A stretch of 64,000 nt of DNA. It comes from Escherichia phage ST0. The DNA is taken from the sequence record MF044457; one strand, 5' to 3'. Each line of letters opens with the position of its first letter. Within the stretch, counting starts at the first letter, position 1. Under the pieces are notes generated by a model. That model saw nothing but the letters and a program-made list of their open reading frames with translations. It made no database searches and had not been told where the DNA came from. Of the stretch, positions 2,065 through 36,071 are shown piece by piece. Made by a program: the position numbers and the translations under genes.

Positions 2065-3390
2065 ATGCAATTGAATTCTCGTAATCTAAAAAGTATTATT
2101 GATAACGAAGCCTTAGCATATGCGATGTACACCGTTGAAAACCGTGCAATCCCAAACATGATTGATGGATTTAAGCCGGTTCAACGTTTTGTGGTTCATC
2201 GTGCGTTAGATTTGGCTCGTGGTAATAAAGAAAAATTTCATAAACTTGCGTCAATTGCAGGAGGTGTTGCAGATTTAGGTTATCATCATGGCGAATCTTC
2301 TGCACAAGATGCAGGTGCATTGATGGCTAACACATGGAACAACAACTATCCGTTGTTAGATGGCCAAGGCAACTTTGGTTCTAGAACAGTCCAAAAAGCT
2401 GCAGCATCTCGTTATATTTTTGCTCGTGTAAGTAAAAATTTCTATAACGTATATAAAGATACTGAATATGCTCCAGCTCATGAAGATAAAGAACACATTC
2501 CGCCAAAATTCTATCTTCCTATTATTCCGACAGTTCTTTTGAATGGCGTCTCCGGTATTGCAACCGGTTACGCAACAAATATTCTGCCTCATAGTTTTAA
2601 ATCAGTCAAAAAGGCTGTATTACAAGCTCTTCAAGGTAAAAATGTCACTAAGCCAAAAGTTGAATTCCCGGAATTCCGTGGTGAAGTACATGAAGTTGAT
2701 GGGCGTTATGAGATTCACGGAACATATAAGTTCACATCTCGCACTCAAATGCAGATAACTGAAATCCCATATAAATTCGACCGTGAAACGTATGTGAGTA
2801 AGGTTCTTGACCCGTTGGAAGACAAAGGTCTAATCTCATGGGAAGATGATTGTGGTGAACACGGCTTTGGGTTTAAGGTGAAGTTCCGTAAAGAGTACTC
2901 GCTTCCTGATGATGAAGAGCTACGTCATGAAAAAATCATGAAAGATTTTAGTCTCATCGAACGTCGTTCACAAAACATCACAGTGATTAATGAAAAGGGT
3001 AAATTAGCAGTCTACGATAACGTAGTGGACTTAATCAAAGATTTTGTTGAAGTCCGTAAGACTTACGTTCAGAAACGTATTGACAACAAAATCCTTGAAT
3101 CTGAAAAAGCGTTTAAACTTGCTTTTGCTAAGGCACACTTCATCAAAAAAGTTATTACAGGTGAAATTGTGATTCAGGGCAAGACTCGTAAAGCTTTGAC
3201 TGAAGAGCTAGCACAAATCGAAATGTATAAAGAACATGTCGATAAACTGGTAGGTCTTAACATCTTCCATATCACTTCCGACGAAGCACGTAAACTGGCA
3301 GAAGAAGCTAAAGCTAAGAAAGAAGAAAATGAGTATTGGAAGTCTACCGATGTTGTGACAGAGTACACTAAAGACTTGGAGGCACTTTGA
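2065..3390 (+). CDS. 52: DNA topoisomerase II medium subunit gp52
   Basis: 441 aa; recalled T4 gp52 similarity throughout, length matches T4 (442 aa). Confidence 0.95.
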   Translation: MQLNSRNLKSIIDNEALAYAMYTVENRAIPNMIDGFKPVQRFVVHRALDLARGNKEKFHKLASIAGGVADLGYHHGESSAQDAGALMANTWNNNYPLLDGQGNFGSRTVQKAAASRYIFARVSKNFYNVYKDTEYAPAHEDKEHIPPKFYLPIIPTVLLNGVSGIATGYATNILPHSFKSVKKAVLQALQGKNVTKPKVEFPEFRGEVHEVDGRYEIHGTYKFTSRTQMQITEIPYKFDRETYVSKVLDPLEDKGLISWEDDCGEHGFGFKVKFRKEYSLPDDEELRHEKIMKDFSLIERRSQNITVINEKGKLAVYDNVVDLIKDFVEVRKTYVQKRIDNKILESEKAFKLAFAKAHFIKKVITGEIVIQGKTRKALTEELAQIEMYKEHVDKLVGLNIFHITSDEARKLAEEAKAKKEENEYWKSTDVVTEYTKDLEAL

Positions 3391-3466
3391 GTGCCCTAGC
3401 CTTAGGATTTCTCGGTGCAATAGCTGCACTAGTGATTTGGCTGTATTGGTTGGACAAACATGATTA

Positions 3467-3487
3467 GGGAGCTTCGGCTCCCTTTTG
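3467..3487 (+). terminator. rho-independent terminator
   Basis: GGGAGC-TTCG-GCTCCC hairpin followed by TTTT. Confidence 0.7.
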
Positions 3488-3507
3488 TGCATTTTTCTCG
3501 CAAAACA

Positions 3508-3536
3508 GTTTACATGTGCTTCAAACATGATATTAT
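3508..3536 (+). promoter_or_regulatory. early promoter (GTTTAC, 17-nt spacer, TATTAT)
   Basis: GTTTAC at 3508-3513, TATTAT at 3531-3536; the roughly 70-bp promoter-to-ATG cassette is nearly identical to the one at 3829-3897. Confidence 0.65.
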
Positions 3537-3575
3537 AGACCTATCAAAACAAAACAACCAAATTGGAGAAATAAA

Positions 3576-3791
3576 ATGTCTAAAATGAAATTAACCCAAA
3601 ACACAACTACTCGTTTTGGTAAAGTTAAACCTGGTATGAATGCTCCCCGTAAAGCACTTGTTGAAGAATTAAATTTCTTAGAAGTTGAAATCAATTCTTT
3701 AGTGGTTCGCGGTTCAAATGGTCATCATTTAGAAAAGCTTCGTTCTAAAAAGGCAAAACTTATTGGCCTTATTAAAGAAATGAGTTTGTAA
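3576..3791 (+). CDS. hypothetical basic protein (71 aa)
   Basis: ORF with SD GGAGAA and upstream early promoter. Confidence 0.5.
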   Translation: MSKMKLTQNTTTRFGKVKPGMNAPRKALVEELNFLEVEINSLVVRGSNGHHLEKLRSKKAKLIGLIKEMSL

Positions 3792-3828
3792 ATTTTACCA
3801 GGGCTTTTGAAAAAGAGCCCAAAATAAA

Positions 3829-3857
3829 GTTTACTTTTGCTTCAAACATGATATTAT
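3829..3857 (+). promoter_or_regulatory. early promoter (GTTTAC, 17-nt spacer, TATTAT) upstream of motA
   Basis: GTTTAC 3829-3834, TATTAT 3852-3857; near-duplicate of the 3508 cassette; preceded by hairpin GGGCTTTT...AAGAGCCC at 3801-3820. Confidence 0.65.
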
Positions 3858-3894
3858 AGACCTATCAAAACAAATACTAATTTGGAGAAATAAA

Positions 3895-4527
3895 ATGTCT
3901 AAAGTTACTTACATCATCAAAGCTTCTGAAAACGCTCTGAATGAAAAAACTGCTGCAATAATGGTTTATATCATTAAGAACAACTTCACCACTGCTGCCA
4001 ATGTCCGTGAAGCTCTGGAAGCGGAATACAATGCATCGGTTGTTAACTCTAACATTGGTGTATTGATTAAGAAAGGTTTAGTCGAAAAATCTGGTGATGG
4101 ACTTATAGCAACAGGCGAAGCAATGGATATTATCCAAAAAGCTGCAGACCTCTTTGCCCAAGAAAATGCTCCAGAACTTCTTCAGAAACGTAACACTAGA
4201 AAAGCACGTGGAGTTACTCCTGAAATGCATGAATTAGCAAACTTTGTTTTTGAAAATATTAAAGATAAAGTTGAAGTTAAAGAAATTGGTGAAAACCGTA
4301 GTAACTTGGAAGTTCGATTTGCAAAACGAGTTCTAGGTATTCGTCAGATCGAAATTCGTCGAAATGGTTCTCTTAGAATCTTTGCATACAACATGTCAGA
4401 AACCGAATCAAAGCTGTTTACTTCTCTTGAAAATGATGTTAAGATTAAGATCGGTGGTAAATATACTTACATTGACTTCCCTAATGTGTCCAAAGAAATC
4501 ATTACCCTTGTAACTAACGTACTGTGA
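3895..4527 (+). CDS. motA: middle-transcription activator MotA
   Basis: 210 aa; recalled T4 MotA similarity (MSKVTYIIKAS...NSNIGVLIKKGLVEKSGDGLI...AQENAPELL). Confidence 0.93.
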   Translation: MSKVTYIIKASENALNEKTAAIMVYIIKNNFTTAANVREALEAEYNASVVNSNIGVLIKKGLVEKSGDGLIATGEAMDIIQKAADLFAQENAPELLQKRNTRKARGVTPEMHELANFVFENIKDKVEVKEIGENRSNLEVRFAKRVLGIRQIEIRRNGSLRIFAYNMSETESKLFTSLENDVKIKIGGKYTYIDFPNVSKEIITLVTNVL

Positions 4528-35137: not shown

Positions 35138-35159
35138 GGGAGACTTCGGTCTCCCTTTT
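35138..35159 (+). terminator. rho-independent terminator
   Basis: GGGAGAC-TTCG-GTCTCCC hairpin followed by TTTT (same hairpin sequence as the gene 32 terminator). Confidence 0.75.
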
Positions 35160-35192
35160 GTGCGTTTAGGGCAGAAAAAGTTTAAAAAGATG

Positions 35193-35220
35193 TTTACTCT
35201 CCTGTAGGATGTGTTACTAT
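35193..35220 (+). promoter_or_regulatory. early promoter (GTTTAC, TACTAT)
   Basis: Consensus elements about 40 nt upstream of the ORF at 35263. Confidence 0.5.
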
Positions 35221-35262
35221 AGACTTGTACCACCTAATCAATAAAACAACCTGGAGAACAAA

Positions 35263-35631
35263 ATGAAAATCAATCTGAACTCATACATCAAATGTAAAGA
35301 CCACGATGGTTATAAAGCTATCGAAATTAAAGAATTCCAGTGGATGTTATACAAAGAGCAATTTGAGTTCGTAGGTTGTATGACCCCTGAAGGTCCTTCT
35401 GATGATTTCTCTTGGAAAATTGTGTTAGCAAACTTTTTCACAGGTGACACGTACGAATTAAAAACTATTATTACCGGTAAAATTCGTTCAGAAACATATG
35501 TTGACGAAGAAACTGGTTACTCTGAAGATGTTACATGGTATCAAAATGGACGCATTACAGCAGATAACCTGATCGAAAAAATGAAAGCCAAAGGTGTTTT
35601 AAATTTAGACAATTGGATTAAAGTTGCATAA
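35263..35631 (+). CDS. hypothetical protein (122 aa)
   Basis: ORF with SD GGAGAA; 30.x-type island. Confidence 0.5.
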   Translation: MKINLNSYIKCKDHDGYKAIEIKEFQWMLYKEQFEFVGCMTPEGPSDDFSWKIVLANFFTGDTYELKTIITGKIRSETYVDEETGYSEDVTWYQNGRITADNLIEKMKAKGVLNLDNWIKVA

Positions 35632-35635
35632 AACA

Positions 35636-35675
35636 GTTTACTTTGGTACAGGTTATGTTATTATAGACCTGTACC
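35636..35675 (+). promoter_or_regulatory. early promoter with 9-bp dyad symmetry (PeSL-like)
   Basis: GTTTAC 35636-35641, TATTAT 35659-35664, inverted repeat GGTACAGGT/ACCTGTACC bracketing the -10. Confidence 0.6.
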
Positions 35676-35705
35676 AATAAACAACTTAAACATCTGGAGA
35701 ATAAA

Positions 35706-36071
35706 ATGAACTACATCAACTTCGAACGCAAATATGTTTCTAACGGTATTGCTGGTTCTTCTGAAGTTATTTGCTTATGGAAACACGAAAACGGTACAGT
35801 TTGTGAAATCGAACAGTGCATGACTCCTAATTACGTTTATATGCGATTTGAAAATGGCATCACGGTTTCAATCACAATGGAAGGTTCCAACTTCAAAATT
35901 GCATTAGATGATGATTTCCGTCAACGTGATTTAGGTACTCATCCTTGCTGGAATGGTGTTAATCGTAAGCTTCTGGTTAAAACTTGGATTCGTCATATCC
36001 TGAGTAACCGAGCTAAACCTGAACATCTCGAAGCAATCTTTGATGTAGTTCTTAATGAATTCGATATCTAA
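35706..36071 (+). CDS. hypothetical protein (121 aa)
   Basis: ORF with SD GGAGAA. Confidence 0.5.
   Translation: MNYINFERKYVSNGIAGSSEVICLWKHENGTVCEIEQCMTPNYVYMRFENGITVSITMEGSNFKIALDDDFRQRDLGTHPCWNGVNRKLLVKTWIRHILSNRAKPEHLEAIFDVVLNEFDI

What the first reader, a model, noticed from the sequence alone, without database searches (positions are those of the whole stretch)
3508..3897. Near-identical duplicated 70-bp promoter-leader cassettes flanking a small ORF upstream of motA
The stretches 3508-3577 and 3829-3897 are almost identical (GTTTAC, 17 nt, TATTATAGACCTATCAAAACAAA, then TTGGAGAAATAAAATG). This gives the 71-aa ORF and motA the same promoter and ribosome-binding site. Direct repeats of this length are substrates for homologous recombination, so the small ORF between them is prone to deletion or tandem duplication.
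Basis: seen in the sequence. Interest (0 to 1): 0.4.

Follow-up and report, generated by a model that had tools for sequence, protein, structure and literature searches.

The report
Twin early-promoter cassettes flanking a dispensable phage gene
In this RB69-like (T4-type) phage, two near-identical promoter-plus-ribosome-site cassettes bracket a small gene just upstream of the master regulator motA, and about half of the close relatives have lost exactly one repeat unit with the gene; this is a clean new example of the already described "PeSL" cassette shuffling, not a new kind of element.

Summary
3502-3584 and 3823-3903 align at 74 of 83 columns, with perfect runs of 37 nt and 22 nt. In the -35..+11 core the pair is 94% identical, against 47% ± 10% for other early-type promoters in the window.

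Each copy has the same parts: a stem-loop, an AT-rich stretch, GTTTAC, 17 nt, TGn-TATTAT, a GGAG ribosome site and ATG-TCT-AAA. Copy A drives a 71-aa gene of unknown function that is under purifying selection (dN/dS 0.20). Copy B drives motA.

Of about 154 Mosigvirus records, 75 carry the gene and about 79, including RB69 itself, lack about 320 bp, one repeat unit. Both states occur among contigs encoding an identical MotA protein. The surviving cassettes are chimeras of at least two junction classes. No tandem duplication of the gene was seen.

Two further results:
- The two copies evolve in concert; rare variants are shared by both copies within a genome and within a genus.
- The same slot holds an unrelated 75-aa gene in Dhakavirus IME281 and many Tequatroviruses, and is empty in T4.

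This matches the published PeSL (promoter-early stem-loop) model of Arbiol 2010 and Comeau 2014. It is a new member of a known kind, of moderate interest.

The parts
2065..3390 (+). Gene 52 (topoisomerase II medium subunit), the upstream conserved flank of the slot.
   Evidence: A 441-aa ORF. It is annotated as gp52 / DNA topoisomerase II in relatives that are 98-99% identical.
3387..3467 (+). A 26-aa hydrophobic mini-ORF with a TTG start that overlaps the gene 52 stop codon. It is the positional counterpart of T4 motA.1.
   Evidence: Read directly from the sequence. T4 has motA.1 at the same place, and JS98 and IME281 have an ATG-started hydrophobic ORF there. It has no Pfam hit. Whether it is coding was not tested.
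3466..3490 (+). Stem-loop T1, aGGGAGC-UUCG-GCUCCCu followed by UUUGUG. It is the intrinsic terminator after gene 52 and the stem-loop part of cassette A.
   Evidence: It folds at -15.5 kcal/mol with z -3.8. The equivalent site is annotated as an ARNold terminator in ATK47, WFL6982 and PhAPEC2.
3502..3584 (+). Cassette A. It contains an AT-rich stretch, -35 GTTTAC (3508-3513), a 17-nt spacer, TG plus -10 TATTAT (3531-3536), a leader, GGAG (3565-3568) and ATG-TCT-AAA (3576-3584).
3576..3791 (+). The 71-aa gene of unknown function (PHROG 6200). Its model shows a basic, low-confidence N-terminus and a helical hairpin. It is the dispensable cargo between the two cassettes.
   Evidence: - PHROG 6200 at E 4e-40.
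- Homologues occur only in Mosigvirus (75 records) and Dhakavirus (17 records).
- dN/dS is 0.20 against JS98.
- The AlphaFold2 model has pLDDT 76 and gives no informative fold match.
3801..3820 (+). Stem-loop SL2, GGGCUUUU-GAAA-AAGAGCCC, with an 8-bp stem and no U tract after it. It is the stem-loop part of cassette B.
   Evidence: It folds at -12.3 kcal/mol with z -3.5. JS98 has GAGCUCUU-GAAA-AAGAGCUC at the same place, which gives one compensatory pair change (A-U to G-C) and one C-G to U-G change.
3823..3903 (+). Cassette B. It contains an AT-rich stretch, -35 GTTTAC (3829-3834), a 17-nt spacer, TG plus -10 TATTAT (3852-3857), a leader, GGAG (3884-3887) and ATG-TCT-AAA (3895-3903).
3895..4527 (+). 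motA, the activator of middle-mode transcription and the downstream conserved flank of the slot.
   Evidence: PHROG 1345 at E 4e-90. Pfam MotA_activ plus MotCF on the identical protein.

Best explanation
**What it is.** The window comes from a Mosigvirus, an RB69-like T4-type coliphage 99.6% identical to phage HX01. Between gene 52 and motA lie two tandem PeSL-type regulatory cassettes. Each consists of a stem-loop, an AT-rich stretch, a strong T4-type early promoter (GTTTAC, 17 nt, TGn-TATTAT), a short leader, a GGAG ribosome site and the codons ATG-TCT-AAA. The first cassette expresses a 71-aa accessory gene and the second expresses motA.

**Shown.**
- The two cassettes are kept nearly identical by gene conversion.
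- Recombination between them removes one repeat unit (about 320 bp) together with the gene, leaving one chimeric cassette in front of motA.
- This state segregates at roughly 50% among Mosigviruses. Presence and absence are mixed across both flanking haplotypes.
- The same slot carries a different gene in other T4-type phages.

**Inferred.**
- The gene was present in the common ancestor of Mosigvirus and Dhakavirus, so ORF-less phages are mostly derived deletions.
- The recombination is carried out by the phage's own homologous-recombination and replication machinery acting on 22-68 nt of perfect identity.
- Both genes are transcribed immediately after infection at similar strength.
- Both mRNAs are probably silenced by RegB cleavage in the GGAG.
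- Because SL2 lacks a U tract, motA may also receive read-through transcription from the upstream copy in ORF-carrying phages.
For: **Anatomy.**

**Similarity beyond promoter consensus.**

**Presence/absence.**
- 154 records match the locus at 95% identity or more, and 75 of them hold the ORF.
- Two-piece matches spanning 982 rather than 1301 bases mark the ORF-less records.
- RB69 has a 185-bp gap between gene 52 and motA.
- Of 10 places encoding the identical MotA protein, 6 lack the ORF and 4 carry it.

**Junctions.**
- All 15 ORF-less cassettes read keep T1 and copy A's upstream context fused to motA.
- 13 of them have the A-type leader. L023 and L028 have the B-type leader.
- AV113, moskry and L027 carry the B-type TTTT after the -35.

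**Gene conversion.**
- NHEP11 has the rare -10 variant GATAGTATAG in both copies.
- In NHEP11 and PHB12, copy B has acquired the A-type leader, giving 68 nt of perfect identity.
- In APCEc01 and L030, copy A has the B-type TTTT.
- JS98's two copies are 41 of 41 identical and share genus-specific bases (GCTTTAAAC, GATACTATAG) that differ from both Mosigvirus copies.
- All Dhakavirus-type homologues of the small protein start MNK. The two Mosigvirus-type sequences start MSK, as MotA does, so the tract extends into the coding sequence.

**Ancestral presence.** Between the window and JS98, nucleotide identity is 71.6% for the ORF, 72.3% for gene 52 and 71.4% for motA, and dN/dS for the ORF is 0.20.

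**The slot is a shuffling site.**
- IME281 holds an unrelated 75-aa ORF between the same two cassettes.
- G4498 is a T4 backbone with a roughly 345-bp Dhakavirus-type insert. Its ends lie in the +1 motif CTATCAA and in GGAGATTAAAATGTCTAAA.
- The slot is empty in T4 and holds three small ORFs in Merlin.

**Flank trees.** ORF-carrying and ORF-less phages are intermixed on both flanks.

**Literature.**
- PeSL definition and mini-circle model: PMC2839356 and PMC4122927.
- T4 early promoter consensus: PMC1524935 and PMC2988021.
- RegB cleaves GGAG in early Shine-Dalgarno sites: PMC3014915.
Against: - No transcript, promoter-activity or terminator data exist for this phage. All regulatory roles are read from sequence.
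- SL2 has no U tract, so it may not terminate transcription.
- The polarity (loss versus gain) rests on equal divergence of the ORF and its flanks in one genus pair. The divergent Mosigvirus ESCO47 lacks the ORF, which also fits an ORF-less Mosigvirus ancestor followed by re-acquisition.
- The flank trees are short neighbour-joining trees without support values. Intermixing can come from ordinary recombination in the flanks rather than from repeated excision.
- The different junction classes could arise from one deletion followed by conversion during mixed infection.
- The leader GGAGAAATAAAA matches only 5 of the 7 positions that follow GGAG in the strong RegB consensus GGAGRAYARAA, and I did not check for a regB gene.
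- No reciprocal product (duplication or circle) was observed.
Confidence: 0.8

Rival explanations
1. Gain rather than loss. The ancestral Mosigvirus had a single motA cassette, as RB69 and ESCO47 do. The [71-aa ORF + SL2 + second cassette] unit entered some lineages by recombination of a PeSL mini-circle or of a co-infecting relative's DNA with the resident cassette, and then spread horizontally.
For: - The divergent Mosigvirus ESCO47 and the type phage RB69 both lack the ORF.
- Insertion of exactly this kind is documented for the ORF75 unit in Tequatrovirus G4498.
- Presence and absence are uncoupled from the flanking haplotypes.
- The PeSL model is explicitly reversible (PMC2839356).
Against: - ORF divergence between Mosigvirus and Dhakavirus (71.6%) equals that of gene 52 and motA (72.3% and 71.4%). 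This fits co-inheritance since the genera split rather than a recent import. The imported ORF75 unit, by contrast, differs from IME281 at only a handful of aligned positions in G4498.
- ORF-less cassettes that carry B-type patches (TTTT, or the B leader) require that a copy B was once present or was met in a mixed infection.
Confidence: 0.2
2. The deletion arises by replication slippage or copy-choice between short direct repeats, or by single-strand annealing after a break. It does not arise by reciprocal homologous crossover or mini-circle excision.
For: - Perfect identity in most ORF-carrying genomes is only 22-37 nt. From my own recollection of Singer et al. 1982 (Cell), this is below the roughly 50 bp thought to be needed for efficient T4 homologous recombination.
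- No reciprocal duplication is seen in 92 records.
Against: - Sequence data cannot tell the two mechanisms apart, because both give the same junctions.
- Conversion patches and shared rare variants show that heteroduplex or strand-exchange events do occur between the copies.
- Mini-circles were physically detected for PeSLs in phi1 and RB49 (PMC2839356, abstract).
Confidence: 0.25
3. The two cassettes are alike only because both are strong early promoters under the same functional constraint. On this view the presence/absence of the ORF has nothing to do with the repeats.
For: - T4-type early promoters share an extended consensus (PMC2988021, PMC1524935).
- The core is also 90-93% conserved between genera.
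Against: - Other consensus early promoters in the same window are only 47% ± 10% identical to one another, against 94% for this pair.
- T4's orthologous motA promoter has an unrelated spacer.
- Rare variants are shared by both copies within single genomes.
- The deleted segment equals one repeat period, and the junctions lie inside the repeat.
Confidence: 0.03
4. The 320-bp difference is an assembly artefact caused by collapse of a repeat.
For: None specific. Repeat collapse is a generic risk in short-read assemblies.
Against: - The repeats (about 80 nt, with at most 68 nt perfect) are shorter than typical sequencing reads.
- The ORF-less state occurs in about 79 independent records, including RB69 itself, and in metagenome assemblies.
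- Junction sequences differ between lineages.
Confidence: 0.01

Closest known systems
PeSL (promoter-early stem-loop) cassettes of T4-type phages. Described by Arbiol et al. 2010 (Genome Biol Evol, PMC2839356) for phi1/RB49 and by Comeau et al. 2014 (PMC4122927) for PST/T4 and nt-1/KVP40.
   Same: - The composition is the same: a stem-loop just upstream, an AT-rich stretch, a sigma70-like early promoter that fits the T4/PST-type consensus TTTACW-N17-TAYWAT, a Shine-Dalgarno sequence and a start codon at the 3' end.
- Tandem copies flank a small ORF of unknown function.
- Close relatives differ by exactly the ORF plus one cassette, leaving a chimeric cassette.
- Alternative ORFs occupy the same slot in other phages.
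   Different: - This locus (gene 52-motA) and this genus (Mosigvirus/Dhakavirus) are not mentioned in either paper. Searches for 'motA' and 'RB69' in both texts returned nothing.
- The two copies here are far more alike (94% core identity, up to 68 nt perfect) than a family consensus would give. They show concerted evolution, which those papers do not discuss ('gene conversion' occurs 0 times).
- The repeat extends three codons into both genes.
- The downstream gene is a conserved master regulator rather than another ORFan.
- Promoter, terminator and mini-circle activity were shown experimentally for phi1/RB49, not here.
The T4 motA early promoter and its RegB-sensitive GGAG leader. Sources: Uzan et al. 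1988 and 1990, as cited in PMC3014915, and the T4 early promoter consensus in PMC2988021 and PMC1524935.
   Same: - The gene and its position after gene 52/motA.1 and a terminator are the same.
- The -35 is GTTTAC-type, the -10 is extended (TGn), the ribosome site is GGAG, and the start is ATGTCTAAAGT.
   Different: - T4 has a single cassette and no ORF in the slot.
- Its spacer and leader sequences are unrelated to the Mosigvirus/Dhakavirus type.
- RegB cleavage was shown for T4 early mRNAs and is only inferred here.
Morons and other promoter-plus-terminator gene cassettes of temperate phages. This comparison rests on my own knowledge (the lambdoid moron concept of Juhala et al. 2000) and was not checked with the tools here.
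   Same: An accessory gene with its own promoter and stem-loop is inserted between two conserved genes and is variably present among relatives.
   Different: Morons are not bracketed by near-identical direct repeats that mediate their excision. They are typically expressed from the prophage, whereas this is an immediate-early lytic gene in a virulent phage.

Membership tests
PeSL (promoter-early stem-loop) cassette | A sigma70-like early promoter; for the T4/PST group the consensus is TTTACW-N17-TAYWAT (PMC4122927). | tested here: met
   Copy A reads TTTACA, 16 nt, TATTAT. Copy B reads TTTACT, 16 nt, TATTAT. Counted from the T4 hexamer GTTTAC the spacer is 17 nt. Both copies have TG before the -10.
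PeSL (promoter-early stem-loop) cassette | A stable stem-loop associated with the promoter; in the PST type it lies just upstream. | tested here: met
   T1 (3466-3483) folds at -15.5 kcal/mol with z -3.8 and ends 24 nt before the -35. SL2 (3801-3820) folds at -12.3 kcal/mol with z -3.5 and ends 8 nt before the -35. SL2 is conserved in JS98 with a compensatory pair change.
PeSL (promoter-early stem-loop) cassette | [quoted passage not shown] | tested here: met
   The upstream stretches are CATTTTTCTCGCAAAACA and AAAATAAA. Both copies end in TTGGAGAAATAAAATG.
PeSL (promoter-early stem-loop) cassette | Intergenic position, flanking small non-essential ORFs of unknown function. | tested here: met
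   The 71-aa gene (PHROG 6200, unknown function) is absent from about half of Mosigvirus isolates, including RB69.
PeSL (promoter-early stem-loop) cassette | Indels or replacements between close relatives have their end points inside the cassettes, leaving one chimeric cassette. | tested here: met
   The 15 ORF-less cassettes read are all single A/B chimeras. RB69 has the same short gene 52-motA gap. IME281 and G4498 show a replacement and an insertion with junctions in the promoter +1 motif and in the ribosome-site/start motif.
PeSL (promoter-early stem-loop) cassette | A multi-copy family dispersed through the plastic regions of the genome. | tested here: inconclusive
   - 13 consensus early promoters lie on the + strand of the window, against about 1.5 sites expected by chance on both strands together. 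At least one further adjacent pair with a T1-like terminator lies at 35.1-35.7 kb.
- Only copies A and B are near-identical.
- I saw only 64 kb of the genome.
PeSL (promoter-early stem-loop) cassette | Promoter and terminator activity demonstrated, and formation of PeSL mini-circles. | not testable with these tools
   This needs reporter assays, 5' end mapping and outward-facing PCR on phage lysates, as was done for phi1/RB49 (PMC2839356).
RegB-sensitive early mRNA leader | An unpaired GGAG in the translation-initiation region of an early transcript, with an A-rich 3' context (strong-site consensus GGAGRAYARAA, PMC3014915). | tested here: inconclusive
   - Both leaders read GGAGAAATAAAA. GGAG is present, and 5 of the 7 following positions fit the consensus.
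- The leaders show no significant secondary structure (z -0.96 and +0.27).
- Cleavage, and the presence of a regB gene in this phage, were not tested.
MotA-dependent middle promoter | A MotA box (a/t)(a/t)(a/t)TGCTT(t/c)A placed 11-13 bp upstream of a TAnnnT -10 element (PMC1524935, PMC2988021). | tested here: not met
   Copy B contains a perfect box, TTTTGCTTCA (3835-3844), and copy A contains TGCTTCA. The distance to TATTAT is 7 nt, and no TAnnnT lies at 11-13 nt. These are therefore not canonical middle promoters.

The most novel reading that the evidence does not exclude
The cassette core may be more than a promoter.

- It is 90-93% conserved between genera whose coding flanks are only about 72% identical. 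A core at least 90% identical lies next to motA in Klebsiella T4-like phages, and in the motA region of Tequatroviruses as judged from record coordinates.
- In copy B it carries a perfect MotA-box decamer inside the spacer, at a non-activating distance from the -10; copy A has only the TGCTTCA heptamer.

The most novel reading not excluded is that MotA binds this box and shuts off its own early promoter. The duplicated cassette would then place whatever gene is shuffled into the slot (ORF71 or ORF75) under the same MotA-dependent feedback and the same stoichiometry as MotA. On this reading the slot would be a dedicated expression site for exchangeable partners or modulators of the MotA/AsiA takeover machinery.
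Probability: 0.08. Interest if true: 0.6.

Novelty: new member of a known kind. Interest (0 to 1): 0.35.

Why it matters
**A clean natural example.** The locus shows how T4-type phages gain, lose and swap small early genes. Three alleles (a 71-aa gene, an unrelated 75-aa gene, and empty) occupy one slot next to the master regulator motA. The junctions lie inside conserved promoter and ribosome-site motifs.

**What it adds to the PeSL model.**
- Tandem cassettes are homogenised by gene conversion. This lengthens the perfect homology from 22-37 nt to 68 nt in some genomes, and so should raise the chance of the next excision.
- The 71-aa gene is dispensable yet under purifying selection. That marks it as a candidate host-specific accessory factor, and natural ORF-carrying and ORF-less pairs are available for testing it.

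**Practical consequences.**
- Annotators of Mosigvirus therapeutic phages should expect this 320-bp polymorphism.
- ORF-carrying stocks may be heterogeneous at this site.

Tried and rejected
**Searches that gave little.**
- IMG/VR search with MotA returned only 2 loci, both ORF-less. That was too few for a survey, so I used GenBank phage records and exact-protein look-ups instead.
- Function of the 71-aa protein: Pfam gave only a sub-threshold hit (RACo_C_ter, 14.8 bits against a cut-off of 27). The large protein database returned 8 clusters, all unnamed or 'hypothetical'. The AlphaFold2 model (pLDDT 76) is a generic helical hairpin. Foldseek against PDB gave nothing at E ≤ 0.001. Foldseek against BFVD found only the Bp7 homologue. 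The function stays unknown.

**Ideas tested and dropped.**
- Canonical MotA-dependent middle promoter: rejected because the box-to-(-10) spacing is 7 nt rather than 11-13 nt.
- A third copy elsewhere: none in the window. A 47-nt core query finds 3-7 partial matches per Mosigvirus or Dhakavirus genome. I take these, without inspecting them, to be other early promoters sharing the -10/+1 motif rather than further full copies.
- A single ORF-less clade: not supported by the flank trees. The trees are short and carry no support values, so I do not claim a number of independent events beyond two or more junction classes.
- ESCO47's leader (AACAACCATTTGGAG) as a simple A/B crossover product: the lengths do not fit cleanly, so I left it unexplained.

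**Technical notes.**
- The ungapped 101-nt identity understated the A/B similarity (60%) because of the 2-nt indel and the different upstream contexts. I replaced it with the core comparison.
I re-ran it with 7 rows.
Full report
**Identity of the window and layout of the locus**

The region is 98-99.6% identical to Mosigvirus genomes, the RB69-like T4-type coliphages. The best match is phage HX01 at 99.6%. The local gene order is as follows:

- Gene 52, topoisomerase II medium subunit, 2065-3390.
- A 26-aa hydrophobic mini-ORF, 3387-3467, at the position of T4 motA.1.
- A hairpin with a U-rich tail, T1, 3466-3490.
- Cassette A, 3502-3584.
- A 71-aa ORF, 3576-3791.
- A second hairpin, SL2, 3801-3820.
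- Cassette B, 3823-3903.
- motA, 3895-4527.

Downstream follow the arn.4-arn.1 homologues and asiA, then the holin and tail-fibre genes on the opposite strand, as in RB69.

**Checking the observation**

The full repeat, 3502-3584 vs 3823-3903, aligns at 74 of 83 columns with one 2-nt indel. It has perfect runs of 37 nt and 22 nt and reaches through ATG-TCT-AAA, so both proteins start MSK.

Each copy reads GTTTAC, 17 nt, TG-n-TATTAT, a leader of about 28 nt, GGAG, 7 nt, ATG.

The similarity is not what promoter consensus alone gives.
- Of 14 sites in the window fitting the T4/PST-type consensus TTTACW-N16-18-TAYWAT, 13 lie on the + strand. About 1.5 sites are expected by chance.
- This pair is 94% identical over -35..+11. 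The other pairs average 47% ± 10%, and the next best pair is 71%.
- A 28-base pattern allowing 3 mismatches finds only these two sites.

**Presence/absence in relatives**

A 1301-base query spanning the locus matches 154 records at 95% identity or more. The ORF-only query, and a tblastn search with the protein, each find 92 records: 75 Mosigvirus at 95% or more and 17 Dhakavirus at about 74%. Each record has exactly one copy.

The remaining roughly 79 Mosigvirus records match in two pieces spanning about 982 bases instead of 1301. That is a loss of about 320 bp, equal to the repeat period of 319-321. RB69 itself is ORF-less, with a 185-bp gap between gene 52 and motA.

Looking up contigs that encode the exact MotA protein of the window returned 10 places. 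Six are ORF-less and four carry the ORF, and they include metagenome and SRA assemblies. The polymorphism therefore segregates among very close relatives. No tandem duplication of the ORF was seen.

**Junctions and cassette haplotypes**

I read 26 Mosigvirus loci, 10 with the ORF and 16 without. Three sites tell copy A from copy B:
- the upstream context (T1...CAAAACA in A, SL2...AAATAAA in B);
- the four bases after the -35 (A[T/C]GT in A, TTTT in B);
- the leader (ACAACCAAA in A, TACTAAT in B).

In the 15 ORF-less loci whose cassette I read, there is one cassette with A-type upstream context fused to motA. Thirteen have the A-type leader. If their parent resembled the window, the crossover lay in the last 22 identical bases. 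Two (L023, L028) have the B-type leader, so their crossover lay in the 37-nt core. Three (AV113, moskry, L027) combine A-type upstream context, B-type TTTT and the A-type leader.

Among the ORF-carrying loci:
- NHEP11 carries a rare -10 variant (GATAGTATAG) in both copies.
- NHEP11 and PHB12 have the A-type leader in copy B, which gives 68 nt of perfect identity.
- APCEc01 and a Logan contig have the B-type TTTT in copy A.

These patterns are what gene conversion between the copies produces. They also show that recombination has resolved in at least two different intervals.

Neighbour-joining trees of the gene 52 flank and of the motA flank both intermix ORF-carrying and ORF-less phages. This fits repeated loss or gain, or free recombination of the flanks. 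The trees are short and carry no support values, so I do not count events.

**Depth of the arrangement**

Dhakavirus JS98 and Bp7 have the homologous 71-aa gene at the same position, with the same SL2 and with two promoter copies. Three results stand out.

- *Concerted evolution.* JS98's two copies are 41 of 41 identical. They share bases that differ from both Mosigvirus copies (GCTTTAAAC vs GCTTCAAAC, and GATACTATAG vs GATATTATAG).
- *The Mosigvirus repeat is longer.* In Dhakavirus the leaders, ribosome sites and start regions are not repeated, and the small protein starts MNK. In the two Mosigvirus-type sequences it starts MSK, as MotA does. The Mosigvirus repeat was therefore extended by conversion across the start codon.
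- *Ancestral presence.* Between the window and JS98 the ORF is 71.6% identical, against 72.3% for gene 52 and 71.4% for motA. dN/dS for the ORF is 0.20. It is thus a real gene that has diverged in step with its neighbours, which favours ancestral presence and later loss in ORF-less Mosigviruses. The ORF-less state of the divergent ESCO47 keeps the opposite polarity possible.

**The slot is a shuffling site across genera**

- Dhakavirus IME281 has an unrelated 75-aa ORF between the same two cassettes and hairpins.
- That ORF occurs in 168 phage records, mostly Tequatrovirus.
- In Tequatrovirus G4498 a three-way alignment shows a T4 backbone up to the +1 motif CTATCAA of the T4-type motA promoter. 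Then comes about 345 bp that differs from IME281 at only a handful of positions (leader, ORF75, hairpin, Dhakavirus-type promoter). The T4 backbone resumes from GGAGATTAAAATGTCTAAA.
- T4 itself has a single, unrelated-spacer promoter and an empty slot.
- Moonvirus Merlin has three small ORFs in the slot; early-type promoters precede the first two and motA.

**Mechanism**

The anatomy, polymorphism, chimeric junctions, conversion and slot replacement described above are shown by the sequences.

The following is inferred from established T4 biology.
- Both promoters are immediate-early sigma70 promoters of the UP/-35/TGn/-10 class (PMC2988021, PMC1524935).
- T1 terminates gene 52 transcription. 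The equivalent site is called a terminator by ARNold in three relatives.
- SL2 is a conserved hairpin with one compensatory pair change between genera. It lacks a U tract, so transcripts from copy A may read into motA.
- Both leaders carry an apparently unstructured GGAG with an A-rich 3' side. This is the kind of site cut by RegB in T4 early mRNAs (PMC3014915). The match to the strong-site consensus is partial and regB was not looked for.
- Deletion is most simply explained by recombination, or by slippage, between the direct repeats. The PeSL model also predicts a circular product carrying the ORF and one cassette (PMC2839356).

**Comparison with what is known**

The element meets every sequence-level criterion of the PeSL cassettes described for phi1/RB49 and for PST/T4 and nt-1/KVP40. 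These criteria are the stem-loop, the AT-rich stretch, the early promoter fitting TTTACW-N17-TAYWAT, the Shine-Dalgarno sequence and start codon, a position flanking an ORFan, and indels with end points inside the cassettes. Promoter and terminator activity and mini-circles cannot be tested here.

Neither paper mentions motA, RB69 or gene conversion. The locus and the concerted evolution are therefore additions, not a new kind of element.

It is not a canonical MotA-dependent middle promoter. A perfect MotA-box decamer sits in the spacer of copy B, but 7 nt from the -10 rather than 11-13 nt.

**The cargo gene**

The protein belongs to PHROG 6200, of unknown function. It has no Pfam family, and only Mosigvirus and Dhakavirus homologues. 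The AlphaFold2 model has a low-confidence, basic N-terminus and a two-helix hairpin (pLDDT 76) with no informative structural neighbour. Its function is unknown. It is dispensable in about half of the isolates yet under purifying selection where present.

**Verdict**

The feature is a well-documented new instance of PeSL-mediated modular shuffling. It adds evidence for gene conversion between tandem cassettes and for a three-allele slot next to motA. Interest is moderate at 0.35, and the novelty class is a new member of a known kind.

Noticed in passing
window 3387-3467 (+): A 26-aa hydrophobic mini-ORF whose TTG start overlaps the gene 52 stop codon. It sits where T4 has motA.1, and where JS98 and IME281 have an ATG-started 34-aa hydrophobic ORF. 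Most Mosigvirus records do not annotate it.
   Followed up: partly
window 3466-3483; L012 (PhAPEC2) and L014 (LF82-4), equivalent site: The terminator hairpin GGGAGC-TTCG-GCTCCC occurs as its exact reverse complement, GGGAGC-CGAA-GCTCCC, in PhAPEC2 and LF82-4. This is a hairpin-inversion polymorphism. In moskry and ESCO47 the hairpin has an extra C-G pair next to the loop.
   Followed up: no
window 35138-35720 (+): A second adjacent pair of early-promoter cassettes, with -35 elements at 35193 and 35637. They are 71% identical over -35..+11, the next-best pair in the window. They flank a 122-aa ORF (35263-35631). The first cassette is preceded by a T1-like terminator, GGGAGACTTCGGTCTCCCTTTTGTG. 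This is probably another PeSL pair.
   Followed up: no
window 3835-3844 (copy B) and 3517-3523 (copy A): A perfect MotA-box decamer, TTTTGCTTCA, lies inside the promoter spacer of copy B. Copy A has TGCTTCA. Both are 7 nt from the -10 instead of the canonical 11-13 nt. The motif is conserved as TGCTTTA in Dhakavirus and GCTTTA in Merlin, and is absent from T4's motA promoter.
   Followed up: partly
window 3508-3548 and 3829-3869 vs L003 (JS98) 1428-1468 and 1753-1793: The promoter core is 90-93% identical between Mosigvirus and Dhakavirus, while the adjacent genes are about 72% identical. A core at least 90% identical lies at motA in Klebsiella phage Potts1 and, judging from record coordinates, in the motA region of Tequatroviruses. 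The cause could be functional constraint or inter-genus exchange; this is unresolved.
   Followed up: partly
L019 (Tequatrovirus G4498) 1122-1540; L017 (IME281) 1192-1600: A roughly 345-bp unit (leader, 75-aa ORF, hairpin, Dhakavirus-type promoter) sits between the T4-type motA promoter and motA in G4498 and differs at only a handful of positions from Dhakavirus IME281. This is a recent inter-genus transfer. The ORF is present in 168 phage records and absent from T4.
   Followed up: yes
L016 (Bp7) 1816-2450: In the Bp7 record, motA is annotated as two CDS (1816-2025 and 2025-2450). This suggests a frameshift or a sequencing error in that record.
   Followed up: no
L011 (ESCO47) about 1713-1790: The divergent, ORF-less Mosigvirus ESCO47 has a leader, AACAACCATTTGGAG, that is one base shorter than type A and one base longer than type B. 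It is not a simple A/B crossover product.
   Followed up: no
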